Counted from the stretch's first letter, positions 16,814 through 52,733 are shown. The stretch: DNA of 64,000 nt from Trypanosoma brucei (GCA_000002445.1 CP000071.1:832001-896000); one strand, 5' to 3'. Numbers and translations: made by a program. Notes: generated from the sequence alone by a model not told the origin.

Positions 16814-18287
16814 ACTTAGATCTGGGCGGAAAGGATAGCGTGCGGCGAACCACGTTGTACTCTTTTGCCTTTCAGTTTTTCCATTTTTGATTATCTTTTT
16901 CTTGCTATGGGGATCTCTTTACAGCTCCAGTAGAGTTTTCGACCTGACTTACGGGCCTTCGGGGAAGGAGAGGTGCAAGTTCATTCCCTTTTCCCGGTAA
17001 CCTACCGGATGGAGAAATAGCGGTTACGAGGCGCACCTCTGCTGCATCTTCTGATCACTGACACAGGTGCGGGCAAGCTGCATCCGACTCTTCGCGTTTA
17101 GATTGTGTGCTACCCTCGCAAGTGTTTGAAATAATTCCCTTCATGTGGATACGTGAAAAGCCAATTCGGGTTGAGGTCGCTTATCTTTGTTTGCGCCTGT
17201 GCAAACATTCGCATACAGAAGTTGCGAAGCAGTCTTTTCGTGTTTAGATTTGCGCACGTCGCGGAGATAAGACGTGCTCGAAAAGTAATAAGGGATTCGG
17301 GGGACGACGAAGGTGTTCCTTTGTGTGGACACGTACATTTTATATGCCCCCCGCAGTCAGCAGACGACCACGTAAGGCGGTGTTGAGGTAGTGACTCAGT
17401 TTCGGGGTGCGGAGGCTCTCGTCCATCGATTTGATATCTTCCGTTTATGTGGCGTCAACGGGGGCAAGAAGAATGCGGCAGAGCGCACCAGCGGGCTGTC
17501 CGGTGGCCCCGTGTTTTACATAACTCTGGTTTTCCCTTTCCGTCTTCACCCTTCCCCACCCGTATCGACTTCAACGACCGGAGGGGAAAGGCCCCTTTGG
17601 CGAGAAGGGGGAGGACGCCTCCGTGCATTTATCCCCTCGCACCTTTCGGCTCCTCAGCGCTCACAGCGGAGGTGCAACTGAAGTGGCCGTGCATAAAAGG
17701 AGCGTTAGTTAAGGGGCCTAATTATGTTGGAAAGTATGACATGTACTTGTTCGTAACACTACAGCGCCTGGTAGAAGAGGGTCATTTGGCTCCCAGCGTC
17801 AGCCAGTGTCCTGTAAATCAAGGGCAGCCGCGGGTTGAAAAGCAACAAGTCGTTGACATGAGGGAAGGGGAAAAAGTGAGGGAAGCGAAGCCCTGCACAC
17901 GCGTGAAAGAAAAGAAGGGATAAACCTCCACCCCCGAATAACACCGGTGACGCTATAATGATAACAGGTTTTGGATGTTCATCCTCCCTCCTCCCCCCCC
18001 CCCGCTGCGCAAAGGAAGAGAAGTTGAAGGTGATGGCACTCGCGGGTTCTATTCCCTGTGCCCACTATTGTATTTGGCACAGTGTTGTTGTAAAGGTTTG
18101 GCTCAGCACTTCGAATACAAGTACCGTGTTTCTTCGGTTCATCCTTCATAACTTCTGTGTGTGGCCTTGTATCCACCTCTGTTGCCTGAGCCGCTTCCTC
18201 CCTCTTTCTCGTCTTCCCTAGATCCTCTATACCCGTAGCGTTGCTGCGTCATTCTTTCACAACCGTGCGATTGCATCGCTGGAGTGG

Positions 18288-20052: not shown

Positions 20053-21813
20053 ATGCAGGTGACACGGGACAATTTACCGACCGTGCTTCCCAAATTTGTA
20101 CAGCTTCTGAAAACCTGCGACTTCTATGCATTCGACGAGGAAATGACAGGAATCAATGTGCCTGAGCTCCCAGAGTCTGTCACCGATACGCCCCAGGAAA
20201 CCTACAACGCAAAGCGAGCAGCGGCAAGCCGCTACAATATAATTCAAGTCGGGATATGCCTCTTTCACAAAAATAGCGAAAACGGGCCTTCTACACCAGC
20301 GTCGTATGTTGCCCGCCCCTTCAACTTTGTTATTTTCCCCAATCATGAAGACGACTCGCCAAGCTTGGGGAGGGGAGACGACGTGGTGCTAAATCCTTCG
20401 TCCCTTGCATTCCTTCGGCGGCACGACATGAATTTTCAGTCGTGGGTGTACCGTGGCATGGGTTATTGCGATGCCGCCCGTGAGGTGGTATTGCGCCAAA
20501 ATCATGAAGAAAAGTACCACCCTAACCTAAATGACTCTACAGAGCAACGACGGCGCCACGCGCAGTCTATGGAACTCCTAACCCAGGAAGAGAGAAGTTG
20601 GTTTGATGGGGCCGTTGCCGCAGCGCAGAGCCTCTGTGAGCGTGCCCGGGCCGCAGTGGAGCGCGCACAGGCGCAATGTGCTGAAAAGGGAAGTCCTGGT
20701 GCAATTGAGCTGGATGCCGCGATGGATCTCCAGCGATCCGGCGGACGCGAAGTCGTCATCCAGCCGCAGAGAAACAAAAATGCCCGAGAATGTCTGCAGC
20801 GGCACATCGCGCAACACTTCCAAGATATTTCTCTCACGTTCCGACGGAGCGGTTCGACTTATCATGGCACCTTTAAGGTCCTCTTTCCCGGCGAGCAGGC
20901 TCGTATTCTCGAGAAGGAATGCGCGCTGAGAGAACGCGAATTGGTGGATATGCTAGGTTTCCGCCTCGTTTTTAAGGCACTTGTCGAAAGTTCGAAGCCT
21001 TGTGTTGGGCACAACTGCCTAGCGGACGTTCTCTTTCTACTAGCTTCTCTCGATGGAGAACTTCCCGCCGCATTGCCCGAGTTCAAGCATCGCGTCGTCC
21101 AGCTGTTCCCGAAAGTGTTCGACACCAAGTATATTGCCAGCCGCCAAGATCTCTTTCCGGCAGGCAGATTTGGGTCTCGCTACTTGGCGGGGTATTTTGA
21201 CGAATGTGGATTTTGCTCGGCAAACGTTCGAGTATCACTTCCGTTGGGCTTCGAGGAATATGACCCGCTGAAACTTTCTTCAGTGGGGAGAAGCGCAGGT
21301 GGCAATGGCGCACCGGTTCACGAAGCCGGATACGACGCCTTGTTGACTGGGACGCTGTTGCTTAATCTACTCGCGGAAATTGGAGGAGGTGACGTGACGA
21401 CGGCCCCAGCAGGGTTGACGAATAGGTTGGCCCTCTTTCGTTCCCTATTCGCCATTAACCTAAATCCCGACGGTGAAGATGAATACCTTCCTCAAAGCGG
21501 TGCGTTAACGCTACAACACGAAAAACACATCAAGTCTCATCATATCGACAGCTGCTTTTCAGCCTTCTCCTTGCAACATGTAGCCCTGTACCCGATCGAC
21601 GACATGCGCACCCTTGCTGTGCTCCCCTTGTCGTGGACAAAAGCGTGCAACCTCGACGTTGAGGATGTGAGTGGGCTTTCTGTGCAAATGACCTCGCGCT
21701 TCCCTCAGTACTTCCAGGCGTCTCCGTTCACATTCCCTGCAGGTACTAAAGGCGCCTTCCGCGCAACGCCCGTCTCTCTAGCAAGAACGGTTTGCAAAGC
21801 ACTAAGAAGGTGA
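20053..21813 (+). CDS. PARN: Poly(A)-specific ribonuclease (PARN) homologue, CAF1/DEDD deadenylase family (586 aa)
   Basis: N-terminus MQVTRDNLPTVLPKFVQLLKTCDFYAFDEEMTGI...YNIIQVGICLFHK aligns with the PARN N-terminus [34 protein letters not shown]...LLFQFGLCTF. The first DEDD acidic motif AFDEEMTG is present. Confidence 0.8.
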   Translation: MQVTRDNLPTVLPKFVQLLKTCDFYAFDEEMTGINVPELPESVTDTPQETYNAKRAAASRYNIIQVGICLFHKNSENGPSTPASYVARPFNFVIFPNHEDDSPSLGRGDDVVLNPSSLAFLRRHDMNFQSWVYRGMGYCDAAREVVLRQNHEEKYHPNLNDSTEQRRRHAQSMELLTQEERSWFDGAVAAAQSLCERARAAVERAQAQCAEKGSPGAIELDAAMDLQRSGGREVVIQPQRNKNARECLQRHIAQHFQDISLTFRRSGSTYHGTFKVLFPGEQARILEKECALRERELVDMLGFRLVFKALVESSKPCVGHNCLADVLFLLASLDGELPAALPEFKHRVVQLFPKVFDTKYIASRQDLFPAGRFGSRYLAGYFDECGFCSANVRVSLPLGFEEYDPLKLSSVGRSAGGNGAPVHEAGYDALLTGTLLLNLLAEIGGGDVTTAPAGLTNRLALFRSLFAINLNPDGEDEYLPQSGALTLQHEKHIKSHHIDSCFSAFSLQHVALYPIDDMRTLAVLPLSWTKACNLDVEDVSGLSVQMTSRFPQYFQASPFTFPAGTKGAFRATPVSLARTVCKALRR

Positions 21814-22288
21814 AGAAGGGTGTTTAAAAAAAAAAAAATTCGCGTTACTCTACTGCAAAAAAAAAAAAAGACATTCGGCAACGAACAATTCAATCCACTG
21901 GGGGATGCGTGCCCTTCGTCGCACCACAACCACAATCCTCTTCAATTTTCCCTCTTTCCTATTTTCGACCCCTAACCCGCCTGCCGGCACGCCCCAAATG
22001 GCGCGGCCCACATTTGACGTAGAAACCATTTGCATATATGACTCTCCCGAGGACCCGCGCCCCGGGCAGACTCGAAGGGGGGACGTTCTGCGCATAACGC
22101 TAAGTGGCGGCGAACAGCAAGCCTCCCGTAACGTCCCTGTAAACGCGGCCGACCCGATCCAATAGTAAAACACAAGGGCCACGTCCTCTTCCCGCCCCCG
22201 CCGCAGCAGTAAGGTTATGCGTGAGAGGTTTTGACTGCCACTTGGAACGCTGAACCGTGGCGTAAGAGTCTCCGCAAAGGAAAACGAA

Positions 22289-22362
22289 TGCTCCCGGCGG
22301 GGTTCGAACCCGCGATATTCGGTTCATAAGACCAACGTCCTAACCAACTAGACCACGGGAGC
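22289..22362 (-). tRNA. tRNA-Ile (anticodon TAT)
   Basis: Minus-strand cloverleaf: acceptor GCTCCCG/CGGGAGC, anticodon arm TTGGT-CTTATGA-ACCGA, T-arm GCGGG-TTCGAAC-CCCGC, discriminator A. Confidence 0.65.
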
Positions 22363-22456
22363 ATTGGCGCCGGCCACTTCGACAGATACAGAGGAAAGGA
22401 CCGCCGAGTAAACTTCTTCGTTTGTATTAGAAAAAAACAGCCTAACGGCAGTGGCC

Positions 22457-22528
22457 GGTCCTATAGTGTAGTGGTTATCACTTCGGACTTTGAATCCGAA
22501 AACCCAGGTTCGAATCCTGGTAGGACCA
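22457..22528 (+). tRNA. tRNA-Gln (anticodon TTG)
   Basis: GGTCCTATAGTGTAGTGGTtATCAC...anticodon arm TTCGG-ACTTTGAA-TCCGAA...T-arm CCAGG-TTCGAAT-CCTGG; acceptor GGTCCTA/TAGGACC; T-run follows. Its 5' end lies 95 bp from the 5' end of the divergent tRNA-Ile. Confidence 0.8.
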
Positions 22529-22585
22529 AATTTTCGTTTTTTTCAATTCACTAACTATGGTGTCTTTTCACCATCTGCGGCAGTG

Positions 22586-22658
22586 CGTGGGTGATCTAGT
22601 GGTTATGATGTCTGCTTTACACGCAGAACGTCGCGGGTTCGAACCCCGCCCCGCGTAG
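22586..22658 (+). tRNA. tRNA-Val (anticodon TAC)
   Basis: Anticodon arm TCTGC-TTTACAC-GCAGA; T-arm GCGGG-TTCGAAC-CCCGC; acceptor GCGTGGG/CCCGCGT with two G-U pairs; T4 follows. Confidence 0.65.
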
Positions 22659-22727
22659 CGTTTTCCAGTTTGCGGCTGCGTCTCTTCATGTATGGTTCCG
22701 ATTAATGAAATTGTTGAGGAACACGTA

Positions 22728-22800
22728 GCCCTTCTAGCTCAGTCGGTAGAGCGCACGGCTCTTAACCGTGTGGTCGTGGGTTCGAGCCCCACGGGGGGTG
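22728..22800 (+). tRNA. tRNA-Lys (anticodon CTT), copy 1
   Basis: GCCCTTCTAGCTCAGTCGGTAGAGC...anticodon arm CACGG-CTCTTAA-CCGTG...T-arm GTGGG-TTCGAGC-CCCAC. Near-identical to metazoan tRNA-Lys(CTT). An identical copy is at 29366. Confidence 0.8.
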
Positions 22801-25800
22801 CTTTTCTCCGATTTCCCTGATTTAACTTCCACAATGGGGTGCCTCGAGTGCTGTCCCGTAAGGCGGTGTGATGTGTCAACAGGCCTTCCTTCAGCAGCGT
22901 CACAGTGATATCGTCGTCACTAAAGGGGAAGTGCCTTCTTCAGGTTGTTGATCTAACATGTTATTGGCCGAAGGCTCCTGCGGTGGACGGCGCATCCCAC
23001 CACCACCTCCCCCCCCCCCCCCGAGAGATCGGGCCTGTGAACTTTTCGGTTATACCCCACACACCCTTTTTCCGGTGGTCTGTCACGGTTTAATTTACGC
23101 GACACGAAAGAGAGCAAACAGACCCCTCACATGAAGCGATGTGTGGGACCGTGTTTTCGGGGGGGCCGAGTCATTAGAACACTTGGAGTTCCTTCTTTTT
23201 TGCTTGTGTCAGACGTCACTGTGCAGCTTTCCTTTCCTAAGGACTAGCCCTTAGCTCGGTGGGGCCATTCAGTAAAGAAGTTCCACCTCCTCACAGTGGT
23301 TGCACAGGAAAATAGCTGCACCCAGGGGCTGGGCACAGGCGCCACAACAAACCACGGCTATTGTCCTAACCCTTGAAAACCAATAAACTTGTATGTACAT
23401 AATGGGTGTCACCTCTAATTGATTCGGAAGTGGACACGAGTATCTTGACGTCAAAAAAAAAAAAGAAAAAATAGCGACTAGCGAACTCCCATATGCTGGG
23501 ACCGTTGAGGTCTTCAGAGGGGACGCTGTACGGAACAAAGATACTGTTAAACATCACCCTGAAGTTGTGGAAAGGATAAAGGCGAAGTGGGGGGCTGAGA
23601 AAAATGGAACCTGAAGGAACAAAATGAAAAACTCGGGGACCTATTACGAAGGCTCGCTCCGAAATTTGATAGAAACTAAGGTTCGATAGAACCAAATTGT
23701 TTATTGTACGCCCTTTCTCTTTAATCTATTTTGTCAGGTGCCGACTAGGATGATGACCCCTAGTAGGGAACAAAAAAAGACACTCGAAACAAAATGCAAG
23801 TAGTCTTTTCATAAAAATAAAAGAGATCAGGCCCTCATCACATCACACAACGTTCTTAAACATGCAGAAACACGACATATACCAGTGTTCGCGCCTGTGC
23901 GAAGCTCCAGCATCCACCTACTTCCTACTCCCACAGACACACACCCTTCACCCCAGCCCCTGTGGTGAGACTATGTTTTTCCCTGCACATGATGGGAGCC
24001 GTGTCATCAACTGTTCGTGGGCTGAAAGCATGTACCCGGGGCCCCTCTGATGGGAGTGCCTGTGTGGTAAAGAGTCCGCCCCAAACACGGCAGTGGGTTG
24101 GTGTTGTTCGCCTTTACGCTCCAATCATACCCCATTGGAGCACACCACAGGCACCTGATCTTCCCACCCTGACTGATGTGCATGAACAGAGAAACACTCT
24201 GGGGTTTCCGGCTGCCCCGGGGCACCGATTCTTTTCGCAGAGATAAATTCCCTTTAGCTTGTCATAGAAGTGGTTTTACGTTCTGCGGATCAAGGCTTCA
24301 AACAAATAGGCACCCGATATTTCTTTTCCCAACTTTTTTTTTTCACCGCTGCCTATTCAATCATCCTCGAAGCGTGCAAAAGCGGCTAGTAAAAAAAGAA
24401 AACCTTATACCAACTCGAGATTAACATAATATATGTACACATAACTCGTGATCGAGCCCCTAGTTTTGAGCGCTAGCCACACATAGGTCCAATTTTTTTT
24501 TCTTTTCACCGTTGAAAAGTAACTTGCCCGAACCACTCAAATAAGTGCCCAAGGTGTGTGGGAAGGAAAGACACAAGACTCTTCTAAGTAATTTCAAAAC
24601 TGTGACATCACTGGAAGGCCAAATAACCAATGTCCATGGGATGGTCAGAGCTCAGTAAAGTGACAGCAGCGTCGGTGAAGACTGCGCCGGGTCTGCCGAA
24701 CGAGAATGGCAAACTCCAGGTGCAGAAACACCAGCACACGCTCACACACATTCGCATATAAACAGCCTCCGCCTTCCCAATGCCGAGCGAAAGAGAACAC
24801 GCTGTAACCTATGGAAGCGGCGAAACACAGCTATCGCTAACCTTGCTTTGCGGTCATTGCTAACGCTGATGGGACGAAAAATAAGGGCTGACAGCTGGAA
24901 GAATAACACCAACAGAAAAGGAAAAGAATGGTGGCTAAGAGGCTCATATGTTCGAGCTTTTAAACTGGTATTAAGCGCAATTTCATGGGGTAATATTGCG
25001 CTGGTCTTGGTACCTTTATCTGGGGCAACGGCTATTACACTAGAGGGCAGGATGTGTAAAGCCACGTATCTCCACAGTTTATTGAAAGGAGGAAGAAGTT
25101 CTTGAATTAAATAACTTTTTTGATAAAGATTTTAACAACAAGCTAAACAGAATGCTCTAAATTTGGAGGAGGTGACAAGTAAGGAGAGGGTGGGGAAGAA
25201 ATCCTGGGAAAACAGATGCGGTTAGAGGGAGTTTGTATTGGGCAACTTTTTTTTTTTTGCACGCAGGCACGATTTAAAAATATATACATTTGCTTCCAGT
25301 GTTGGCTCCTTGTTCTCTCTCAGTGTCTGAAGGCAAAGTAGGGCCTGGATTATCACTAGAAGTAAGTCAATGGAGGTAATATCCTGGAATGGGTGCGATA
25401 CCCGAGAGTTCCCCCCATTGGGGTCGAGGCGATATGCTTTTCGCATAAAACACCGGAAGCAGGTACGTGCAAAAGAGGAAAGGAGGAGCATCATCTACGA
25501 GAGTGCACCCTCACCTCATTAACGTGAATGCGCTCAGTTAGGAAACTTGGACTTACCCCCTTTTATCCTTCCCTTTTGGAAGCCGTATTCGGCCCAAACA
25601 CGAACCAGTACGTGGGGATTCGGCGTAGCAACGCCGCCGGTATTCAATACGAGGATGGACCAACCAACGTATACAAATAAAGAAAACGACGAGGAGACAA
25701 GACAACGCCAAGCTGTTAAAAGTTTACCCACAGAACGGCCCATACAAAACGATGCACGGAAGGACGAAAAGGAGGGACGCTTCCGTTCCCACTCAAAGTT

Positions 25801-26105
25801 TACTGCAAGCACGGCGCTTTCGTGATGACGCACTGCAGGTGAGTTGCCCCCACCCCGGAAAAACAGCCGTACAACCCAACATACCACAAAGAACAATATA
25901 AAAGGATCGTATACTAATAAATACTGCGTGGCCGCACCCCTTTTCATCTTGTCTGAATGCCGAGGATGATGGGTTGCAGACGCCGCACTCATCGCCTTGG
26001 GATCGGTGCCCGGTTCATGCGTACTTTGTCTTGACATCTCGATCGGGGCGGCATACTCCATAATATGCTATAGCGTACATAAAAAAACAGTGCTGGGCTG
26101 TAGCG

Positions 26106-26177
26106 GCAATCGTGGTCCAACGGTTAAGATTTCCGCCTTCCAAGCGGGAGACCCGGGTTCGACTCCCGGCGATTGCA
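26106..26177 (+). tRNA. tRNA-Gly (anticodon TCC)
   Basis: Acceptor GCAATCG/CGATTGC is a perfect complement; anticodon arm TCCGC-CTTCCAA-GCGGG; T-arm CCGGG-TTCGACT-CCCGG; T-run follows. Confidence 0.75.
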
Positions 26178-26263
26178 CATTTTTTCGTTTTTATCATTCG
26201 GCATATTGTTATGCTCTCGAAAAGCTTTGACACAACATTGCTACGTTAACTCAGGCGGCGGTG

Positions 26264-26345
26264 TGGCAAGATGGTCGAGTGGTCTAAGACGTGACGTTCA
26301 GGTCGTCATCTCTCCGGAGGCGTGGGTTCAAACCCCACTCTTGTC
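26264..26345 (+). tRNA. tRNA-Leu (anticodon CAG), 82 nt with a long variable arm
   Basis: GGCAAGATGGTCGAGTGGTCTAAG...anticodon arm TGACG-TTCAGGT-CGTCA...T-arm GTGGG-TTCAAAC-CCCAC; acceptor GGCAAGA/TCTTGTC. Close match to eukaryotic tRNA-Leu(CAG). Confidence 0.8.
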
Positions 26346-26429
26346 AATATTTTCGTCCGATCATATCGGACTCAGCGGTTTCAAGTGTGGTCTCAACCGC
26401 CGCCGAAGTGTCAATAGGCGCGAAAACAA

Positions 26430-26501
26430 AGGCCCCGCCGAGAATTGAACTCGGGACCCCTGGTTTACAAGACCAGTGCACTGCCACTGTGCTACGAGGC
26501 C
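26430..26501 (-). tRNA. tRNA-Thr (anticodon TGT)
   Basis: Reverse complement GGCCTCGTAGCACAGTGGCAGTGCA-CTGGT-CTTGTAA-ACCAG-GGGTC-CCGAG-TTCAATT-CTCGG-CGGGGCC, similar to eukaryotic tRNA-Thr(TGT). Confidence 0.75.
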
Positions 26502-26598
26502 AGCGGAAAGGGCTAATAGATATTTCTTGCAGAAACTTTTTTAGAGGAAAAAGGTTATTTCATATACGTTGGCATTTTCAGTATTGCGCCTCGCTGAC

Positions 26599-26670
26599 GG
26601 TCTCGTGGCGCAATGGAAGCGCATCAGACTTCGGATCTGAGGGTTGCAGGTTCGAGTCCTGCCGGGATCG
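26599..26670 (+). tRNA. tRNA-Arg (anticodon TCG)
   Basis: D-arm GCGC-AATGGAA-GCGC; anticodon arm TCAGA-CTTCGGA-TCTGA; T-arm GCAGG-TTCGAGT-CCTGC; acceptor GGTCTCG/CGGGATC; T4 follows. It starts 98 bp from the 5' end of the divergent tRNA-Thr. Confidence 0.75.
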
Positions 26671-29021
26671 CACTTTTCCTCAGTCACATTGGTTCGATAG
26701 CGCCGCGGCTTGTGTGTTAACGGCGCCGCCGGCTGAAAATAGCGGAAGTGGCTGCTAAAGGAGGGGGAGGAGGAGGGGACTAACGACACGGGCTAGCCTG
26801 GCTGGTAGCGGCGAATGTGCTTTCGCCCGACATGATGGTGACCTCTATTTTCTGCTTTATAAGGTTTCGCCTTGACGTTGGAAGAACCGCTTCTTGCACA
26901 TTTGCTCAATGTTGATCATTTCATAGTTTAAGTCAGCAACAGGTCGACCGCCTGTAAGGGTCATCTTTTCCTTACCCACTTATCCCTTTTGCCAATATAT
27001 GCTCATACACAGAAATTGACGGTCAGAGATTTTTCACATGGAACAGTTGAAGCTCGTTTTGCCAACATCCCGAGGAGCGGAGACGAAAATCGCAACCGCC
27101 TCTTTATTGGGCCCCGCATGGCTTAATACCAACCGTTTCTCCCTTCTTGTAGAGAAAAAAAGGTTCTGTTTAGTTGGTTGACTTTCTTGTGAAGATGCCA
27201 TGCATAGAGGGACGTTGTCAATTCGAAAATGATGCGTATGCTTGGAAGGGTCTCTCTTTTCACACGTTGGAATGAATTAAGGAAGCCTTTCTGCCAACGC
27301 CGCGGGACCGCATCAACCGTCATTGCAGGCGTCATTGTAAGGTGGAGTGGGGCTAGTGGATAAACGGAAACGTTTGTATGATGCCGAAATGAATCGAAGC
27401 AAGGCTCATAACACACATACGAGTCGCTCTCCGCTGAATCAACCGGCCTCCAGTCCAACGGGACGAGATGAGAAGTCGGGAATGCACCATAGCACTGAAG
27501 AAGTAGGGGTCGTCGGGATGTCGATGGAGGAACCCCGCCAACCTGGAAATTGACACCTTCTTCCACCTTTCTTTGGCATTTTAATAAGCGATATGTACGA
27601 ATGAAGCTCCCTAATCTTCTCGAAACGTCGGATTGCGGTTACGGCCACCGGAATGACCTTAGGATGCATCTTGGAAGGGGGTTTTTGTCTACTAGCCTGG
27701 TTTGCTTCTCCGAGGATTGGACACCGGTCCCCCTGACGTTGTGTTGACGGGGGTTGGGCAGGCCGCTGCAATGCAGGCTGTGAAAAACTCATTTTGTCCG
27801 CGCCACCGAAGCGCGGGAGACACGGTTGCTTTATTACTTGTTCCATAAGTTAGAAAGAGTCGCATTATCCAACATGTGTTGAGGAAGGGTTTCGACGCAT
27901 CTGCTGACGTTGCTACCCTCACGCTGACAGTTTAAGGGGGGCACTATAGCGAAGAAATCTTCCGCGAAGCGTTTGGAAGGTAACGAGCGGATTTTCGAGA
28001 ATTAGGGTCACGTAGCAATAACTGAAGAATCAGTGGGAAAGTAGAGAAGGAATATGCCAAAATTGAGAGTGGGTGTTGAAAAACTATCACGAATCCTGTT
28101 TGCCAGCTCAGGTTTCTCGCCTTGTTTCGCGGTGAGCGCGCTCAAATACATGTTGTCGACTCACACCCAGATTTCGGTGAGGGGGGGGGGCCGCCCGCCG
28201 ACACGGCAGAGTGTCACACTATTTCCGACTTTTCGTTCGCAGATAGCGGGGTGGGGCGATAGAAAGCGTGTCACATGATAGAACTTTGTGTTCGCTATTG
28301 TGTAGGTCTTAGGCTGTGGGACCCTAGAGGATAACAGAGAGTCAATCCCCTAAATAGCATTTCACACTATGAGCCCTGACTGCGGTTCCTTGTGGTAGAA
28401 TCGCTCCCCTTTTCATTTGGAAATTTGTTGTGGGGAAATGGATCACTCGATATTTAATGGGCATTGCTTGCTTTGGTATTGCCGCAAGTTGCACTCGTGA
28501 AATTGATGCCTGCGTGTGAGAGAGTCGACAAACATATGAATATATATATATTTTTGACTTTCACCTGGAGCTATTGTAGGGGGCCGCCCGAACGCACTTG
28601 GCTTCAGACCGTCATTGCGTGAGGGAGGGGGTAAGACAAAGATGGAAGAAATACATAATAGCGCCAACCAGACACAGTGTTTCGGACTGGCGAGCCAAAT
28701 AAAGTTAGCACCTCCTACCGCAGCTTATGAAGATGCCGGGGAATACTTTCTTGCGCATCTACTTTTATTCTGGTGGAGCGTTGAAATTTCCCCTCACCCC
28801 ACCGGAGAGTGCGTGATGTAACTCTGCGAATGTCATTGGGGCAAGGGGGGTGCAGCAAAATGGGCGGAGGCGGATGTTGTAAGGCATTTTTTCCCCCACA
28901 GTTCCTCCCATGAGGTGCTTGAATCGTGATCCTGTGACGAAAAGCCATAATCGGCAAAAGAAACCCACTTTGATCCGTTTTCAGCGGAAAACAAACCGCC
29001 TCGCGACGACACTTGGGGCGC

Positions 29022-29272
29022 AAAATCCTGAGATGCTCCTCGGTGTGCTTCTGCAACGGGAACGTGCGCAAGGTGGGCTGCTCCGTCACCGGCCTGACCC
29101 GTTCCCCCCACTTTAACGGCGCGAGAACGCCTCTCTACAGTGGCGACCTCAACACCGACACGCAACCAAGCAGAACACCAAGTCAACGCAACAGAACCCC
29201 CGCTTGTCCAAGACGTCCCCGCTAAGCGGGATCAGCCCCCGAAGGTTACAGAGCAATATGCTCCGGCTACAT
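29022..29272 (-). ncRNA. 7SL (signal recognition particle) RNA gene; the ends are approximate
   Basis: Minus-strand sequence contains an S-domain helix-8-like core CAGGCCGGUGACGGAGCAGCC...UCCCGUUGCAGAAGC. This matches the conserved SRP RNA motif (human GGUCGAAACGGAGCAGGUCAAAACUCCCGUGCUGAUC), including a GNRA loop. A 5' Alu-domain-like UGUAAC loop is present (GCUCUGUAACCUUCGGGG). The 5' end falls about 97 bp divergent from tRNA-Lys(CTT) at 29366, the spacing used by trypanosomatid tRNA-dependent Pol III small-RNA genes. The first T4 run on the RNA strand is at 29022-29025 (GGAUUUUGC); a longer UUUGUUUU lies at 28988-28995. Confidence 0.55.
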
Positions 29273-29365
29273 CAATCGTTTGACAAAGCCAAGTGATATT
29301 CTTATTCGACATAAACTAAGAAAAAATAAATAAATGTATGTTACAATACGCTTACGGAAGCGGCT

Positions 29366-29438
29366 GCCCTTCTAGCTCAGTCGGTAGAGCGCACGGCTCT
29401 TAACCGTGTGGTCGTGGGTTCGAGCCCCACGGGGGGTG
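29366..29438 (+). tRNA. tRNA-Lys (anticodon CTT), copy 2; identical to 22728-22800
   Basis: Same 73-nt sequence as copy 1, followed by T10. Divergent partner of the 7SL RNA gene. Confidence 0.8.
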
Positions 29439-29527
29439 CTCTTTTTTTTTTGACTTCCCTTTCAGCCGTCCTCATACCGAAAAACGGTGTCAAAACCGTC
29501 TGCCCCGTCCTTCTCTTAGGTGAAAAA

Positions 29528-29599
29528 CATCCGTGACAGGATTCGAACCTGCAACCCTCTGATCCGTAGTCAGATGCTCTTCCATTGAGCCACACGGAC
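29528..29599 (-). tRNA. tRNA-Arg (anticodon ACG)
   Basis: Reverse complement GTCCGTG-TG-GCTC-AATGGAA-GAGC-A-TCTGA-CTACGGA-TCAGA-GGGTT-GCAGG-TTCGAAT-CCTGT-CACGGAT-G. Divergent partner of the U3 gene. Confidence 0.75.
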
Positions 29600-29695
29600 G
29601 TGATCGCTACTCGGGTTGACGAGTGAGGTTGAATACATAAGAAACTGTTTATTACCGATATTAGACTATCGCGATAACTCTGGACGCCGGATGTT

Positions 29696-29839
29696 AAGAC
29701 CGTACTCTGAACAGAATCGTTTTATGAGTACAACCTCTTAAATGAGAAATAACCAACAACCAAATCCTGATGATGAAGGTTGCTGGCTCCGCCCGGAGAG
29801 CTGTTCGATGAACGGCAGGAGCCGGTTCCAGAAGGATCC
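29696..29839 (+). ncRNA. U3 small nucleolar RNA gene (about 144 nt)
   Basis: 5' end AAGACCGUACUCUGAACAGAAUCGUUUUAUGAGUACAACC resembles the U3 box A'/A region (vertebrate AAGACUAUACUUUCAGGGAUCAUUUCUAUAGU). UGAUGAUGA (box C'-like) at 29768-29776. A box C-like UCGAUGAAC lies near the 3' end. T7 terminator at 29840-29846. The start is 97 bp from the 5' end of the divergent tRNA-Arg(ACG). Confidence 0.6.
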
Positions 29840-32800
29840 TTTTTTTGTTCCACCTTGGCTCGCTGCAACGGGAACTGCCTGGCTCGCTTCTTTTGAGGCC
29901 CTGTGCCTCACGGGTCTCAACGACGTAAAATAAGCCTCCCGGATGCGGCATTCACACCTCCTGCGTATGGAGAGATTGCGTTTGGGTGTGAGACTGGGTG
30001 GGAAACCAACGGCCAACATCCTTTTCGGGGCAGTGTGAGGGCGATCTCTATGCGCCTAGGGTGGCAGTGTTCAGACCACGCTCTTTGATGAGACCCAGTA
30101 GACGACGATCACCTTATCCGGGCTGTCGAATCCTTTCCGCCGACCCTTCAACCGTGGGATGGATAGGAAACTTTCCGGCCAGCGGGGTGGCAGTGCTTAA
30201 GATGGATGGTGCCGTGTTGGAGAGCGTCGCGCTCAGACGGTAGGCCCCACAAGGATTTCTGTTAGGTCTTACTTTGTTCACCAAAATGATGGAACGGTTC
30301 GGCCGACCAACGCACGGAAGACTGGGGTGCCCAGCATTGTTCCTTCGTGGTGGCAAACATGGCAGTAATGTGATCGAATATCAATCGCCGACAACCGGGG
30401 TGTCATATTCGGGAAGAATTTGTCGGCTTCGTCCAGTGTTCAATAAATTGTTCCATGGGAGTGTCTGCTGAGATTGCGAGGTCCACACTGTTTGGGTCAG
30501 CGACAAAAACGGCTGGCCACCGCGGGCCCGCCGAAGCTAATAGAAAAATGAAGATACCGACACAACCAGGCCCCACCCTGCAATATATCAAGGGCGCCAC
30601 CAAGCATCTCCAAGGGGAATTCGAAATGGCTTAAACGAAATTTTTTTTTTTTGGAATTTTCTTCGTGCCTTCGTGGGAGTTTCCCCCCACTGGCGCGGCC
30701 ATCAGCCATCACCGTAGAGCCCTGAGATGCTATCGGTCTGGCGACTGTGGCAGAGTCTCCCTTTTTCATTCATCCTAACACACCCTCTATAATTTTTGTT
30801 GTATTTCCGCATATGAACGGAATACAGCAGATGGGGCGAGAAGCCCCCCACCCCAGACTCTCCAAAAGTTGTCAATTAGCAATCCTTTTTTTGAGGTCCA
30901 CATCACCAGACAGCAGCATCTTAGTGCGGATGATAGTGCCGATGGCACGCTTGCCACGTGCCCAGGGACCGACAAATGAAGAACGGTGTCCCAGCAAGAC
31001 GCTGCTGATCCCTGTGCTGTATGATGCCGTATCCGGAGCACAGCAGTGTTCCCCATGAAAGGAACGCTGTTGGCTCTTGGCTTCCCCCGATGATACGGGG
31101 TACTGGACCCTGGCACCACGTTGAGGTGGCCGGCATCGCCAGGGACTTAAACGAAAATCGCCCGGTTGCATGCGGTTTCCCCGTTGTAACATTTGCGGGA
31201 GAAACGCTGGGGCCGTTGCGTCACACCGTCGCGGGAAACAGTGCGCTTCCGGGTAGTGGCCATGTTGTTCTTCACCTCCCACCTGACGAAAAAAAATCTG
31301 CAGGGGCCCAAAGGTCAAGCGGCCAGCATCATAGCAAGCATTCCGTGTGGTTTAAACGGGAGCGGCGTGCTGAAAGAGGCAGGATCACCCGTTGTTGAAG
31401 GAGGTTTGCGAGAGCGTAATGGAATGCTAAATTATATTGGCTGCCGGAACCACAGAACGCAGCAGGACCACCGGAAAACTTTACCACGTGGTCAATCTGC
31501 TCATATGGAGTTGGGCGCTGCAGAGGGTTGGTAAAGCAGCTTCTAGGGGTCAAATTTTCTCCGTTGGGGCAAAAGCATCGCTACTAGTTGAAAGATTGCG
31601 AAAGCAGGCTGCCCCCGGGTAAAATAAAGGAGGACGTGCCGGAAGGAGAAAATGAGGTTTAAACGATAATGAGGGTTAGAAGGCGTCCCACAGCGCGCCA
31701 TCAGATCCACGCCGTTGACTCAACCACGTTGGTCATGACTATTTGGGCTGGGGCCATCATATTTGACGAGGATGAGGAACGGACCTGGTCATTTAAAGGG
31801 GCTCGCAGGCTAGGGTGCGGTTAACAAGGAGAGAACGTTGCGACGGAAGTGACGTTCGGAGAACCTCCGAAAAAAAAAGGTGGGGAGCAAGAGAGGAAGT
31901 TGGGTTTATGACGTTCGTTGACTCCGTGTCCCTCATTCCAAGCCTCTGGTGCAGCGCCGGTGTCCGCAGAATTTGCCACGTACACCGCACAAGTTGCCAG
32001 GAGCAATTCATCAACAGACCCGCGTGCACGTCGCCACGGCTTGTTTCCGGTCACTTCGGGATTGAGCACAATGAAATGACCGGAAAGGGGGACTCTCCGC
32101 CGCGAACCTGTCGCACACGCGGTGCCGACACCGTGACGCAGCTGCTCCGGCACAAGGGGGACGGGGAAGTGGCGGTGGCGGATATGTCTATTTTGACGGG
32201 GGGAAGGGCCCACTGCGCGCTGAGGAAAAGCCTTCGAACACACACGTCCTGCGCTCAAGTGGAAGGGGGTGACAACTTTGGAAGAGAGGTTTGCCGCTTG
32301 GCTCCGCAATGGTACAGCAAACGAGAAAGGCGAAGCAGTATACATCCCACTGCTTCTGCGTGTGGTAATTTTGCCCCTCGATATTGCTTCGCACTTCCTA
32401 GGGAACGCGGCGCTCCCTCTTAATGAGGTTGCTTCTGGCCAGAGGATTGTGAACGACTGCCCTCCCCCACTTACTTTGCTTGGATTACTGTGTGAAGGAA
32501 GACTTCGTCACGTTCTAAGAGCAGATGCGCGAATGGTGGTTGACGAGGGTGGTTGGGAGCTGCGAAAGTGCGTTGGGAACCGGAGGAAGGCGGGTAGGGA
32601 ACCTCTCTCTTAAGCTCGGCAGCACGTAACTACACAGCCTTTTTCTGTACTGCATGTGGATGCGCTTGCTGTTCATCCGTGGCTGCCTAGCTCGGCTGTG
32701 AAAAACCGGCAAATGAGGCACGTTTTTTTTTCTTTACTATGTACTCTTTCACGCTATTCACCGACAACGAAATGCGAATTTCCTAGCATCTCCAGCTTCG

Positions 32801-33607: not shown

Positions 33608-36304
33608 CTAAGCAAATGGGTCAAACTCCGCGGCAAATGTACACGAGTTATCTTCCCGCGTCTCTTGGTAAGTTGCCGGTTGCGAAGCATTTGCGTCACA
33701 GAATAAATTTTCGAGCGCATTCTTCAACTGTCCCGTGTTTCTGCTTCCAGTTCCATCGTCTCCACACCCCTCGGAAGTAATTGCATTTGAGAACGACCCC
33801 CAAGACAGAGGACCGCTTTGTAGGTGTTGATGTGTGACGGGAGCTTGCGTCACGTGGCCTTCCGGTGCGCCGTGGGCCTCTGCGCACACCCCGCAGCCGA
33901 TTTCTCTTTTCGCACGGTATGGTGGGTGCGCATTGTCACTAAGATACGTTTCTTGGCTCGGTCCCGTGGCGAGTGGCGCTTTGGGGAGTGCTTCCGCGTT
34001 GCCGCGGCCTAACCCAGTGGTGCCGTCGTCAGTGGCTTCATGCAGTTTCGTTGTGTTGTCGGAGGGAAAGACATCAGAATCTGGAGGGAAAGCCAGCCAA
34101 TTCCCCCCTCTGAGACGCATTTGAAACTCCTCATCACCATCAGTGTCGACCAGGCCGGAAGGTTTGTTCGCGTCAGTTTCCGGCCCTTGAAGGTGAACGT
34201 CTCGATACGGAGGGGCTGCGCTGGCGGTGTTCATTTTTATTTCACTCCCTTTGATGCGAGTAGCATCTTCCCCCTCGGAGAGAGTTCTTAACACTGCAAT
34301 CTGCCCTTCCACGATTTCACTGTAAGCATCACAAACACAGAGCAAGGGTCCCCACGCTTCTGTCAAGGGCACTGCTTGGGTGAATACTTGTTGATTCGTT
34401 TTCAAGACATCAAACGAAGTGCTGCCCTCCCCTCCATCCTCAGGTTCGTTCACGTGGGCTTCCCGCAGCCTTCCGAGTTCCTCCACAAGACTTTCTTTCT
34501 GGTGTTCCAGAGATGAGACAAGTGCCTGTACTTCGGCTAGCCTGGTTTGAAGGCTGCTTACCTCGCTTTGCGCCCCCCTGGCTCGCGTCATCAGTTCTGA
34601 CGCGATCGAAAGCACGGCGATTTGGTTCCACATAAGTATACCGGCAAATGTTTCCTGCTCTTTGTAAGCGATATCCACTCTCTCATATTTCTCTACCATG
34701 TCCATATGGTACCATGTCCATTCACTGCCGGACAGCGGACAGCCTTCCTCAAAGGGTGCAAAAAGCTTGTTTTCCAGCGTACCTGAATGTTTTATTTTAG
34801 CAGTTTCGGACTGCCCTGTAGATGGTACCCCCTTGTTTTCGATACTGTTTTTCGAGTCACTACGCGCATTCTTCTCGTTTCCTACTGGCACAACTTCAAG
34901 TTCCGCTGCCCTTCCCTTTGGTACAAAGATGGTTTCACTGGAGCAAAGTGACTCAACTTCAGCAGACTTCGGTGTACCTTCTGCATGATAGGATCTCTTT
35001 GCTTGAATCCGACTCTCGCTATAGCCTTCCGTAACCAGAGCGATTTCCTTGTTTAAGCGTTGTATCTCTCGTCGTTGTTCATCAAGCTTAAAATTCATCT
35101 CCGTGAATAGCTCGGCACGAGCTTGCTCAATTTCGTCAAAGCTCCGTTGGCGGTCCACTTCGTGAGCACTCATCTCTTCAACGTGTCTCCGATACAATTC
35201 AACCCTCTCGAGCAACATCTGCTCCTGCCTAGTTGGGTTCAATAGGTGTATTTCAGGCAACGAATCAAACTGGAGCAGACTTCTACTCTGTCTTGGACTA
35301 GTTAGAAGTGGGTATTGCTCGTTCGCCGCATTTACCGAGGGACCTCTTTTGAGGTGCTTTGGGATCCGCTTACCCCCGTCTCCCTTGTACCGTATCGGCG
35401 TTACGACTTTTGCAAACGTACGTGATGTGACGGCGTCTCCGCCTTGCACAGGGGAACCTCCACAACCAGGGATTGCTAAACTAACGGGGGCGGGGCACTG
35501 TGCAAAACATTCTTCCACTTTCCACTTCTCCACAGCGACCACGTCAATCTCAAGACGAGAAAGCTCTTCCCGGAGGTCGCGGAGCTCTTTATTGAGGTTT
35601 TCCTTCTCGCGCTCGTTGTGGCGTAGCAGGCGGCGCAAATTATCTCGTTCACTTTCCAAGTTTCCAATACGCTCGTGAAGGCGTTCGAGATTGACAGACC
35701 CTTCTACCTTCGCTTTAATTGCCGTCGAACAGCATCCCTCGTCTGCTCTCACTCTTTCCTCCTCGTCGTGGTGTTCGACGATGGCAGTGTAAAATGAATT
35801 TACTTCCGTAAGTTCTCGTACTTTCTGCTCCAATTCTGCAATCTCATCGTTTCGAGAACGCAGCGCTGTAGGGTTTAGAGAGGCCTCCCCCATGCCAGTG
35901 CGTTCCTTATCCGCATTTGCTTCAGCTCTTTTCAATCCTGTTGGGGTTATCTGAGCATTGTTTTCTGCACGGAGGGCGCTGGATGCACGGGACACCGTAA
36001 TGCTGGAATCACACTCTCTTGTTTTACCTCCGACACACGACTCTTCCATCTGAAGGAGTAATATTCTTTTAGTCTCCTCGTCAGCTACCAACATCTCCGA
36101 GAGCATCTTGCTTTGTTCCGTTAGCGCAGCCACTGCACCGTTTTTTTCCTCCAACTTTTGCTTTAAGGTCTCCACCTCTTCTTCGAGCTTATCAATCTGC
36201 ATTAACTTCACTTCGCCTTCCTTTAAATGCTGCTGAAGCTGCTTCACATAGGCGACAAGCTCTTCTCGGCTTGCCGCACTGATCGTTGGGGCGCTAACAG
36301 ACAT
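33608..36304 (-). CDS. Large coiled-coil hypothetical protein (898 aa)
   Basis: First ATG MSVSAPTISAASREELVAYVKQLQQHLKEGEV...; the track start 36394 is a GTG. Long heptad-rich stretches (LEEEVETLKQKLEEKNGAVAALTEQ; LRRLLRHNEREKENLNKELRDLREELSRLE). Confidence 0.55.
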   Translation of the reverse strand: MSVSAPTISAASREELVAYVKQLQQHLKEGEVKLMQIDKLEEEVETLKQKLEEKNGAVAALTEQSKMLSEMLVADEETKRILLLQMEESCVGGKTRECDSSITVSRASSALRAENNAQITPTGLKRAEANADKERTGMGEASLNPTALRSRNDEIAELEQKVRELTEVNSFYTAIVEHHDEEERVRADEGCCSTAIKAKVEGSVNLERLHERIGNLESERDNLRRLLRHNEREKENLNKELRDLREELSRLEIDVVAVEKWKVEECFAQCPAPVSLAIPGCGGSPVQGGDAVTSRTFAKVVTPIRYKGDGGKRIPKHLKRGPSVNAANEQYPLLTSPRQSRSLLQFDSLPEIHLLNPTRQEQMLLERVELYRRHVEEMSAHEVDRQRSFDEIEQARAELFTEMNFKLDEQRREIQRLNKEIALVTEGYSESRIQAKRSYHAEGTPKSAEVESLCSSETIFVPKGRAAELEVVPVGNEKNARSDSKNSIENKGVPSTGQSETAKIKHSGTLENKLFAPFEEGCPLSGSEWTWYHMDMVEKYERVDIAYKEQETFAGILMWNQIAVLSIASELMTRARGAQSEVSSLQTRLAEVQALVSSLEHQKESLVEELGRLREAHVNEPEDGGEGSTSFDVLKTNQQVFTQAVPLTEAWGPLLCVCDAYSEIVEGQIAVLRTLSEGEDATRIKGSEIKMNTASAAPPYRDVHLQGPETDANKPSGLVDTDGDEEFQMRLRGGNWLAFPPDSDVFPSDNTTKLHEATDDGTTGLGRGNAEALPKAPLATGPSQETYLSDNAHPPYRAKREIGCGVCAEAHGAPEGHVTQAPVTHQHLQSGPLSWGSFSNAITSEGCGDDGTGSRNTGQLKNALENLFCDANASQPATYQETREDNSCTFAAEFDPFA

Positions 36305-36586
36305 TTCTGGTATCTTACTGTACGTATCTATCGCTCGCAAGCTAGGACAACTGAACAATTCTGCTTCCACTACTAAGTGACACGCCAACTTCACAGCAAC
36401 AACCTCTTCGCCATATCAAAAAAAAAAAAAGGAACAGAAGCGGGACTTGAAGGGTTTCTTTTGATGCACAAAAGAGTTCGAAGCGATATTTTTAGAAACT
36501 AGAACGTGTAGTACAAGACAAACACCGACTGTTCTTCTCCCGCTGCACTGCCCACTGTATGGTCAAGCCTCAGCCTATTCATCCCC

Positions 36587-50493: not shown

Positions 50494-50716
50494 TTTGTCG
50501 AGGCGCAAGGATGTATTAGCATAGTTTGCGCAGCGTACCGTTCTTGGTTTTCACCCCGTGGTTGCTTGGACTCCTCCCCTGCTTGAAAGTTCTGTTTGTC
50601 CCTCTGTACACGAACTTGCTGTGCGTAACTGCCGTTCTTTATTGCTTTGTGCTTGAGCTGCTTCTCTCCGCTGTTGGCTCCACGATGAATGCTCACGAGG
50701 ATCAACGTTTTTGAAG

Positions 50717-52483: not shown

Positions 52484-52733
52484 TTTGTTGAGCCGCAAGG
52501 ATGTATTAGCATAGTTTGCGCAGCGTACCGTTCTTGGTTTTCACCCCGTGGTTGCTTGGACTCCTCCCCTGCTTGAAAGTTCTGTTTGTCCCTCTGTACA
52601 CGAACTTGCTGTGCGTAACTGGCGTTCTTTATTGCTTTGTGCTTGAGCTGCTTCTCTCCCCTGTTGCATAGGAATTTGTATACCGTTTTGGGTTTTGTAG
52701 GCGGTGATTATGAAAGGCGCTCAGTTTTTGAAG

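What the first reader, a model, noticed from the sequence alone, without database searches (positions are those of the whole stretch)
28988..29846. Pol III small-RNA locus: 7SL RNA and U3 snoRNA genes, each 97 bp from a divergently oriented tRNA
Two non-coding RNA genes sit in a 900-bp stretch of the convergent strand-switch region. Each is positioned about 97 bp from the 5' end of an oppositely oriented tRNA gene (7SL with tRNA-Lys CTT, U3 with tRNA-Arg ACG). In trypanosomatids the A/B boxes of such companion tRNA genes act as extragenic promoters for U-snRNA and 7SL genes, so the fixed spacing is functionally meaningful. The bacterial-style ORF track places spurious ORFs over both RNAs. The exact 7SL ends and the identity of its Alu domain are uncertain from the sequence alone.
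Basis: partly seen in the sequence, partly recalled or inferred. Interest (0 to 1): 0.6.

Follow-up and report, generated by a model that had tools for sequence, protein, structure and literature searches.

The report
Trypanosome 7SL/U3 genes with tRNA promoters

Summary
Confirmed and already known. Rfam finds a protozoan SRP (7SL) RNA at 29030-29255 (-) at 113.8 bits and a U3 snoRNA at 29696-29838 (+) at 76.9 bits. tRNA-Lys(CTT) at 29366-29438 (+) and tRNA-Arg(ACG) at 29528-29599 (-) lie between them, each divergent from its small-RNA neighbour. Flanking proteins are 99-100% identical to T. brucei-group proteins. The locus lies in a convergent strand-switch region. U3 +1 is 97 bp from tRNA-Arg +1, which puts box A at -104 and box B at -147. 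In L. major and Leptomonas pyrrhocoris, U3 uses other tRNAs (Lys-TTT, Trp-CCA) at 98 bp. Their spacers share no sequence but keep their length. Divergent tRNA-tRNA pairs vary from 73 to 121 bp. Published work states that these tRNA A/B boxes are the upstream promoters and that box A lies 104-106 bp upstream. The 7SL ends are most likely 29268 (5') and the T-run at 28988-28995 (3'), about 275 nt, which gives 98 bp to tRNA-Lys. One published numbering starts at 29256, so the 5' end is not fully settled here.

The parts
28996..29268 (-). 7SL (SRP) RNA gene. The 5' end is most likely A29268 (range 29267-29269). The 3' end falls in or at the T-run that follows, giving about 273-275 nt.
   Evidence: The Rfam Protozoa_SRP core is 29030-29255 at 113.8 bits. 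The 5' end comes from the box-A rule (tRNA-Lys T8 at -105). The 12 extra nt form AGCC/GGCU and GGAGCA/UGCUCU helices that close a small three-way junction. The 3' end nucleotides pair with nt ~40-65 as helix 5. A 275-bp gene size is published (PMC6413958). The alternative numbering origin at 29256 makes 9 of 9 published pseudouridine positions fall on U.
28988..28995 (-). Pol III terminator of 7SL (TTTGTTTT on the - strand)
   Evidence: Sequence read. The terminator-like stem plus T tract was reported.
29269..29365 (.). 97-bp AT-rich (68%) spacer between 7SL +1 and tRNA-Lys +1
29366..29438 (+). tRNA-Lys(CTT), the companion of 7SL. Box A is TAGCTCAGTCGG (29373-29384) and box B is GGTTCGAGCCC (29417-29427). 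A T10 terminator lies at 29442-29451.
   Evidence: ARAGORN. Rfam tRNA at 63.4 bits. Box positions. The tRNA body is identical to the second copy at 22728-22800.
29528..29599 (-). tRNA-Arg(ACG), the companion of U3. Box A is TGGCTCAATGGA (29581-29592 on the - strand) and box B is GGTTCGAATCC (29539-29549). A T5 terminator lies at 29523-29527.
   Evidence: ARAGORN. Rfam tRNA at 66.3 bits. Box positions.
29600..29695 (.). 96-bp spacer between tRNA-Arg +1 and U3 +1. Its length is conserved across genera (96-97 bp) but its sequence is not (46-55% identity).
29696..29838 (+). U3 snoRNA gene, 143 nt, with GAC/A'/A, C' (UGAUGA), C and D-like boxes
   Evidence: Rfam ACEA_U3 at 76.9 bits over the full model. 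It is 143 nt, as published for T. brucei (PMC2784804). It is 87-88% identical to L. major and L. pyrrhocoris U3, with the first 41 nt identical.
29840..29846 (+). Pol III terminator of U3 (T7)
25771..25845 (-). U1 snRNA gene (about 75 nt) in the same Pol III cluster. It is outside the finding's coordinates and was not detected by Rfam.
   Evidence: The 5' AACUCACCUGCAG motif occurs once in each of the four syntenic loci and always inside the tRNA cluster. Conservation starts exactly at +1. There is an Sm-like site and a conserved stem-loop with one compensatory pair, followed by a T4 terminator. In three species it lies 98-100 bp from a divergent tRNA. The literature lists U1 in this 13-gene cluster (PMC2695483).
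26000..26010 (+). B-box-like element GGATCGGTGCC of a degenerate tRNA-like sequence, 155 bp upstream of U1 +1. A weak A-box-like TGTCTGAATGC lies at 25951-25961 (-106).
   Evidence: The B box came from the motif scan (7 of 9 specified positions). The A-box candidate was found by eye (6 of 9). The positions match the published -105/-150 geometry of tRNA-like promoters (PMC4950102).

Best explanation
This is the Trypanosoma brucei-group chromosome-8 Pol III small-RNA locus (cluster 'chr08-II'). The single-copy 7SL RNA gene and the single-copy U3 snoRNA gene are each transcribed by RNA polymerase III from a composite promoter. The essential upstream elements of that promoter are the intragenic A and B boxes of a divergently oriented neighbouring tRNA gene: tRNA-Lys(CTT) for 7SL and tRNA-Arg(ACG) for U3.

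TFIIIC bound to those boxes, together with TFIIIB, sets initiation of the small RNA at a fixed distance. Box A lies about 104-106 bp upstream and box B about 147-150 bp upstream. Sequences at the very 5' end of the small RNA contribute as an internal element. Transcription stops at the T-runs.

Shown here: the gene identities, orientations, box sequences, distances and terminators, the cross-species conservation of distance without conservation of spacer sequence or of tRNA identity, and the organism.

Taken from the literature and not tested here: Pol III dependence, and the requirement for the A/B boxes and for correct spacing.
For: Rfam hits well above gathering score for SRP RNA, U3 and both tRNAs. 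ARAGORN anticodons.

Flanking PARN-1 is 100% identical to the T. equiperdum/brucei cluster, and the neighbouring gene is 99% identical to T. b. gambiense.

Consensus A and B boxes lie at -104/-147 for U3 and -105/-149 for 7SL with +1 at A29268. Box A lies at -104 to -107 and box B at -147 to -150 in all seven small-RNA/tRNA pairs examined in T. brucei, T. melophagium, L. pyrrhocoris and L. major.

U3's companion differs between species: Arg-ACG, Trp-CCA and Lys-TTT. The spacers are only 46-55% identical, yet their length is 96-97 bp. Divergent tRNA-tRNA pairs in the same loci vary from 73 to 121 bp.

T-run terminators follow every gene.

Literature: the A/B boxes of these tRNAs are upstream promoter elements for U3, U6 and 7SL, transcribed in the opposite direction (PMC2943599). 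Box A is consistently 104-106 bp upstream, with an internal element in the first ~21 nt (PMC4950102). T. brucei U3 is 143 nt with an upstream divergent tRNA-Arg(ACG), and the spacing is critical (PMC2784804). There is a syntenic 13-gene Pol III cluster (PMC2695483). TFIIIC subunit Tau95 occupies tRNA genes and a tRNA-like snRNA promoter in T. brucei (PMC10781861).
Against: Nothing contradicts the overall picture.

The weak point is the 7SL start. Nine published pseudouridine positions all fall on U only if nucleotide 1 is window 29256. That would place box A at -117, outside the 104-106 rule.

The primary promoter papers (Nakaar 1994; Ben-Shlomo 1997) were not available to read, so the functional claims rest on how later papers cite them.

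I obtained no second 7SL locus for comparison.
Confidence: 0.95

Rival explanations
1. The tRNA genes help only indirectly. As highly occupied Pol III genes they keep the neighbourhood nucleosome-free, or concentrate TFIIIC/TFIIIB there. The small-RNA start site would then be chosen by the small RNA's own 5' internal element and not by a direct ruler from the A/B boxes.
For: PMC2784804 notes that TFIIIC binding to the B box has been postulated to act through chromatin remodelling. In L. major U2, a second, more distant tRNA-Ala B box also contributes (PMC4950102). The first 41 nt of U3 and the first ~13 nt of U1 are invariant across genera, consistent with an internal element.
Against: A purely chromatin-opening role does not predict a distance held to within 1-3 bp across genera while the spacer sequence and tRNA identity change. 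Divergent tRNA-tRNA pairs in the same open regions vary from 73 to 121 bp. The literature states that the spacing is critical.
Confidence: 0.15
2. The mature 7SL RNA begins at window 29256 (UUGCUCUGUAACC...). On this reading the 7SL gene lies 110 bp from tRNA-Lys, not 97, and is an exception to the spacing rule.
For: All nine published pseudouridine positions on T. brucei 7SL (PMC9283944) fall on U only with nucleotide 1 at 29256; the next-best offset gives 5 of 9. The Rfam model also starts at 29255.
Against: A start at 29256 is a U, which is unusual for Pol III initiation, and it puts box A at -117, against 104-107 in every other pair.

The 12 nt upstream (AGCCGGAGCAUA) pair perfectly with nt 14-19 and 32-35 to close a three-way junction. 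From my own memory of the human sequence, they also begin with the same GCCGG as mammalian 7SL.

A 275-bp gene (PMC6413958) starting at 29256 would run 6 nt past the T-run terminator, whereas 29268 to 28994 is exactly 275 nt.

The numbering could simply come from a database gene model.
Confidence: 0.2
3. The adjacency is only a by-product of Pol III genes piling up in a convergent strand-switch region where Pol II terminates, and the 97-bp spacings are coincidence.
For: Ten tRNAs and three small-RNA genes do cluster between the converging gene arrays. Two divergent tRNA-tRNA pairs in this window happen to be 95 and 98 bp apart.
Against: The same 97-100 bp spacing recurs for U3 and U1 in other genera after rearrangements that changed the partner tRNA. 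The tRNA-tRNA spacings are not conserved (73-121 bp). Functional dependence is reported in the literature.
Confidence: 0.02

Closest known systems
T. brucei U3 (snRNA B)/tRNA-Arg(ACG) and 7SL/tRNA-Lys companion-tRNA promoters (Mottram et al. 1991; Nakaar et al. 1994, as cited in PMC2784804, PMC2943599 and PMC4950102)
   Same: Same organism group, same genes, same anticodons, same divergent orientation, same 143-nt U3, no gene close downstream of U3, and box A at -104/-105. This is that locus.
   Different: Nothing substantive differs. My inferred 7SL 5' end (29268) is 12 nt upstream of the numbering origin implied by one later paper (PMC9283944).
Syntenic 13-gene Pol III cluster: T. brucei chr08-II / T. 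cruzi contig Tc6288 / L. major chr23 (Padilla-Mejia et al. 2009, PMC2695483)
   Same: The window holds 10 tRNA genes plus U1, U3 and 7SL, flanked by the PARN-like gene. The tRNA set Ile, Gln, Val, Lys, Gly, Leu, Thr, Arg, Lys, Arg matches. L. major has a 5S rRNA gene in place of 7SL, as published.
   Different: In the window the cluster is spread over three sub-clusters separated by 3.0 and 2.3 kb of non-coding DNA. In the T. cruzi, T. conorhini and T. rangeli assemblies I fetched, no tRNAs lie within 10 kb of the PARN orthologue.
tRNA-like-driven snRNA promoters (T. brucei and L. major U2, L. collosoma U4; PMC4950102)
   Same: The A/B boxes lie upstream in opposite orientation, with box A about 104-106 bp and box B about 150 bp from +1. 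The window's U1 gene fits this type, with a B-like box at -155.
   Different: 7SL and U3 in this window use bona fide, presumably functional tRNA genes, not degenerate tRNA-like sequences.
Vertebrate and yeast type 3 / mixed Pol III promoters (U6, 7SK, vertebrate 7SL, tRNA-Sec)
   Same: Pol III genes whose key promoter elements lie upstream of the transcribed region.
   Different: There is no PSE/DSE/TATA architecture here. The upstream elements are the internal promoter of another, oppositely transcribed gene. In trypanosomatids all U snRNAs are Pol III products (PMC2943599).

Membership tests
Protozoan SRP (7SL) RNA, Rfam RF01856 | Covariance-model score above the curated gathering threshold over the full model, including the S-domain helix 8 motifs (AGG...GNRA loop...AGCA) | tested here: met
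   113.8 bits against a gathering score of 65, model positions 1-228 of 228, E=1.9e-23. The alignment shows AGGCCGG-UGA-CGGAGCA.
Protozoan SRP (7SL) RNA, Rfam RF01856 | 5' and 3' parts pair to form helix 5, with a discrete Pol III terminator | tested here: met
   The MFE fold pairs nt ~40-65 with nt ~240-273. TTTGTTTT follows.
Protozoan SRP (7SL) RNA, Rfam RF01856 | Canonical Alu domain (helices 3 and 4 with interacting loops; SRP9/14 binding) | tested here: not met
   Only two very short hairpins (6 bp and 2 bp) are predicted at the 5' end. The literature says trypanosome 7SL lacks the L1.2 loop and SRP9/14, and uses the tRNA-like sRNA-76 instead (PMC2800229; PMC9283944). This is the known trypanosomatid condition and not a reason to exclude membership.
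U3 snoRNA (Rfam RF01848 ACEA_U3, clan CL00100) | Covariance-model score above the gathering threshold, a 5' GAC/A'/A region, box C'/C (UGAUGA-type) and a terminal stem with box D | tested here: met
   76.9 bits against a gathering score of 55, full model. AAGACC at the 5' end, and UGAUGAUGA and CGAUGAA are present. Box D is a CAGA variant aligned to the model's CUGA.
U3 snoRNA (Rfam RF01848 ACEA_U3, clan CL00100) | Size and sequence of trypanosomatid U3 (143 nt, single copy) | tested here: met
   143 nt. 87-88% identical to L. major and L. pyrrhocoris U3, which are also 143 nt. Only one hit in the window. The 143-nt size is published.
Trypanosomatid companion-tRNA (extragenic A/B box) Pol III promoter | A tRNA or tRNA-like sequence immediately upstream, in divergent orientation | tested here: met
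   7SL (-) with tRNA-Lys (+), and tRNA-Arg (-) with U3 (+).
Trypanosomatid companion-tRNA (extragenic A/B box) Pol III promoter | Box A 104-106 bp upstream of the small-RNA start (PMC4950102) | tested here: met
   U3: -104, which is unambiguous. 7SL: -105 if +1 is A29268, but -117 if +1 is 29256, so this is met for U3 and only probably met for 7SL.
Trypanosomatid companion-tRNA (extragenic A/B box) Pol III promoter | Consensus A and B boxes intact in the companion | tested here: met
   TAGCTCAGTCGG / GGTTCGAGCCC for Lys and TGGCTCAATGGA / GGTTCGAATCC for Arg.
Trypanosomatid companion-tRNA (extragenic A/B box) Pol III promoter | Distance conserved in evolution independently of spacer sequence and tRNA identity | tested here: met
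   U3 at 97, 98 and 98 bp with Arg-ACG, Trp-CCA and Lys-TTT. U1 at 98, 99 and 100 bp. Spacers are 46-55% identical. Control tRNA-tRNA pairs vary from 73 to 121 bp. No second 7SL locus could be obtained.
Trypanosomatid companion-tRNA (extragenic A/B box) Pol III promoter | Expression of the small RNA requires the tRNA A/B boxes and correct spacing; transcription is by Pol III | not testable with these tools
   Reported for this T. brucei locus by Nakaar et al. 1994, as cited in PMC2943599, PMC4950102 and PMC2784804. The primary paper is not held. The oligo-T terminators seen here are consistent with Pol III.

The most novel reading that the evidence does not exclude
The mature T. brucei 7SL RNA may start 12 nt upstream of the numbering used in a recent modification map, at window 29268 rather than 29256. 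Those 12 nt (AGCCGGAGCAUA) would form helix-2-like and helix-3-like stems that close a minimal three-way Alu-type junction, in a region the map's authors call 'of unknown structure'.

Separately, the ~97-bp ruler appears indifferent to which tRNA supplies the boxes. tRNA-Arg(ACG) serves U3 in T. brucei but U1 in Leishmaniinae. L. pyrrhocoris U3 uses tRNA-Trp, a pairing not mentioned in the papers I read.
Probability: 0.55. Interest if true: 0.15.

Novelty: already known. Interest (0 to 1): 0.1.

Why it matters
It matters mainly as an annotation check. A bacterial-style ORF track mislabels this stretch, and a covariance-model pass recovers four of the five Pol III genes here. It misses the very short trypanosomatid U1.

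Biologically this is the classic example of one gene's internal promoter being reused, at a fixed distance and in the opposite direction, as the upstream promoter of another gene. The cross-species data gathered here illustrate the 'distance, not sequence or tRNA identity' rule cleanly, but they do not extend it.

The 7SL RNA of this locus also has practical relevance, as the source of the 7SL-sRNA used as a diagnostic marker for trypanosomiasis (PMC6413958).

Tried and rejected
1. The other flanking gene (33608-36394, -) as a synteny anchor. Its orthologues in T. cruzi, T. grayi, T. theileri and T. rangeli (L008-L011) have no tRNA or small-RNA gene within 10 kb, so synteny is broken on that side.

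2. PARN-side loci of T. cruzi, T. conorhini and T. rangeli (L001, L003, L005) have no tRNAs.

3. Metagenome scan with the conserved 7SL 5' sequence. The single hit, L012, is a chance match in a GC-rich contig with no SRP RNA or tRNA.

4. Two genome-contig scans, one with a 7SL pattern and one with a U3 pattern, found nothing.

5. Protein search with the open sense-frame translation of 7SL, hoping for spurious ORF calls over 7SL genes in other assemblies, found nothing.

6. The primary papers by Nakaar 1994 and Ben-Shlomo 1997 are not held. The supplement of PMC6413958 had no 7SL alignment.

7. A permissive Rfam scan of 21000-31500 found no further RNA families beyond tRNAs, SRP and U3.

8. Exact B-box matches in the strand-switch region all belong to the ten known tRNAs. 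The repeat search found only the tRNAs themselves.

9. Rejected: that the ORFs over the RNAs are real genes. They have no Pfam hits and overlap high-scoring RNA genes.

10. Rejected: that the internal UUUU at about 29021-29024 is the 7SL terminator. The downstream nucleotides are needed for helix 5.

Full report
**1. Observation.**

A gathering-threshold Rfam scan of the whole window gives these hits:
- Protozoa_SRP (RF01856) at 29030-29255 on the - strand, 113.8 bits (threshold 65).
- ACEA_U3 (RF01848) at 29696-29838 on the + strand, 76.9 bits (threshold 55), full model.
- Ten tRNAs.

ARAGORN names the two tRNAs inside the finding as tRNA-Lys(CTT) at 29366-29439 (+) and tRNA-Arg(ACG) at 29527-29600 (-). 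Rfam trims these to 29366-29438 and 29528-29599.

The order is therefore 7SL(-), tRNA-Lys(+), tRNA-Arg(-), U3(+). This is two divergent pairs placed back to back.

Long ORFs run on the + strand up to 21813 and on the - strand from 33608, so the locus lies in a convergent strand-switch region.

The mechanical ORFs lying over the RNAs have no Pfam match.

**2. Organism.**

The CAF1/PARN-type gene at 20053-21813 is 100% identical to PARN-1 of the T. equiperdum/T. brucei cluster. The gene at 33608-36394 (-) is 99% identical to a T. b. gambiense protein.

The window is therefore Trypanozoon (T. brucei group) DNA.

Padilla-Mejia et al. 2009 (PMC2695483) describe a 13-gene Pol III cluster of 10 tRNAs plus U1, U3 and 7SL. 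They call it chr08-II in T. brucei, syntenic with T. cruzi and L. major. The window's ten tRNAs plus 7SL and U3 match that cluster.

**3. Geometry.**

U3 +1 (A29696, AAGACCGUACUC...) is 97 bp from G1 of tRNA-Arg (29599). This puts the tRNA's box A (TGGCTCAATGGA) at -104 and its box B (GGTTCGAATCC) at -147.

I fetched orthologous loci through the PARN gene and scanned them:
- In L. major, U3 (13417-13559, -) lies 98 bp from tRNA-Lys(TTT).
- In Leptomonas pyrrhocoris, U3 (17931-18073, -) lies 98 bp from tRNA-Trp(CCA).

U3 is 143 nt in all three species and 87-99% identical. The spacers are only 46-55% identical but are 96-97 bp long.

As an internal control, eight divergent tRNA-tRNA pairs in the same loci are 73-121 bp apart.

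The constraint is therefore on distance. It applies specifically to small-RNA/tRNA pairs and does not depend on which tRNA is used.

**4. The 7SL ends.**

The Rfam model covers only 29030-29255.

At the 3' side, the - strand continues to TTTGTTTT at 28988-28995. The MFE fold pairs these last ~30 nt with nt ~40-65 as helix 5. The internal UUUU near 29021 is therefore not the terminator.

At the 5' side, the box-A rule of 104-106 bp (PMC4950102) predicts +1 at 29267-29269. A29268 gives box A at -105 and box B at -149, identical to the L. major U3/tRNA-Lys pair.

The extra 12 nt (AGCCGGAGCAUA) form GGAGCA/UGCUCU and AGCC/GGCU stems that close a small three-way junction.

The stretch 29268 to 28994 is 275 nt, the gene size quoted in PMC6413958.

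Against this stands one result. The nine pseudouridine positions published for T. brucei 7SL (PMC9283944) all fall on U only if nucleotide 1 is 29256 (9 of 9; the next-best offset gives 5 of 9). At least one current numbering therefore starts 12 nt further in.

I consider that more likely a reference-sequence convention than the true 5' end. I could not settle it, because no second 7SL locus could be retrieved.

A separate tRNA-like RNA, sRNA-76, pairs with the 5' domain (PMC2800229; PMC9283944). That RNA is encoded on chromosome 4 (PMC2695483).

**5. Mechanism and comparison with what is known.**

[quoted passage not shown] 1994).
- PMC4950102 gives the 104-106 bp box-A distance and an internal element in the first ~21 nt.
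- PMC2784804 describes T. brucei U3 as 143 nt with an upstream divergent tRNA-Arg(ACG) and nothing close downstream, and notes that the spacing is critical.
- PMC10781861 shows a TFIIIC subunit on tRNA genes and on a tRNA-like snRNA promoter.

The window reproduces each sequence-level feature. This is the published locus, so the finding is correct and already known.

**6. Extra: a missed U1 gene.**

The literature places U1 in this cluster, so I looked for it. AACTCACCTGC occurs once in the window (25835-25845, -). It also occurs once in each of the four syntenic loci that carry the tRNA cluster, and always inside that cluster.

Several features support it as U1:
- Conservation starts exactly at that A.
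- It runs through an Sm-like site, with a conserved stem-loop that has one compensatory pair.
- A T-run follows.
- In T. melophagium, L. pyrrhocoris and L. major it lies 100, 98 and 99 bp from a divergent tRNA (Gly-TCC, Arg-ACG, Arg-ACG).

In T. brucei the nearest tRNA is 261 bp away. However, a B-box-like GGATCGGTGCC sits at -155, as expected for a tRNA-like promoter.

tRNA-Arg(ACG) is therefore U3's partner in T. brucei and U1's partner in Leishmaniinae.

**7. Verdict.**

Novelty: already known. Interest is low.

The only open detail is the exact 7SL 5' end.

Noticed in passing
It is conserved in four other trypanosomatid loci. There it lies 98-100 bp from a divergent tRNA, or, as here, near a degenerate tRNA-like B box at -155.
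   Followed up: yes
window 29256 versus 29268 (- strand): Nine published pseudouridine positions on T. brucei 7SL RNA all fall on U only if numbering starts at 29256. This is 12 nt inside the start predicted by the box-A distance rule, the 275-nt gene size and the 5' helix predictions. It is either a numbering convention or a real 5' end that breaks the rule.
   Followed up: partly
window 22289-22362 (-) / 22457-22528 (+), and 26430-26501 (-) / 26599-26670 (+): Two divergent tRNA-tRNA pairs (Ile-TAT/Gln-TTG and Thr-TGT/Arg-TCG) are 95 and 98 bp apart (+1 to +1), close to the small-RNA ruler. The same pairs are 73-121 bp apart in other species, so this looks like coincidence.
   Followed up: partly
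L006 17931-18242; L007 12688-12868 and 13417-13729: Companion tRNAs are swapped between lineages at constant distance. tRNA-Arg(ACG) partners U3 in T. brucei but U1 in L. major and L. pyrrhocoris. U3 partners tRNA-Lys(TTT) in L. major and tRNA-Trp(CCA) in L. pyrrhocoris.
   Followed up: yes
window 22728-22800 and 29366-29438: There are two tRNA-Lys(CTT) genes with identical bodies and unrelated flanks. Only the second is paired with 7SL.
   Followed up: yes
window 22802-25770 and 26672-28987: About 3.0 kb and 2.3 kb of apparently gene-free DNA separate the three Pol III sub-clusters. There are no Rfam hits, no exact B boxes and no repeats. The orthologous T. melophagium cluster is far more compact, with 478 bp between tRNA-Lys and tRNA-Gly.
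   Followed up: partly
window 12593-14317 (inside ORF 10913-14791, +): A tandem array of 33.8 copies of a 51-bp unit (92% matches) encodes a 17-residue repeat protein. It produces strong AT skew and long spurious ORFs on both strands.
   Followed up: no
window 50711-58063 (+): A head-to-tail array of about four glycosyl hydrolase family 47 (alpha-mannosidase-like) genes with a 2020-bp period.
   Followed up: no
window 1-5000: A markedly AT-rich stretch (GC 0.32-0.41, against about 0.50 elsewhere) with no long ORF, upstream of the first + strand gene.
   Followed up: no
window 44193-46180: A second strand switch, divergent this time, between the - strand genes ending at 44193 and the + strand genes from 46180. 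No tRNA or Rfam hit lies there.
   Followed up: no
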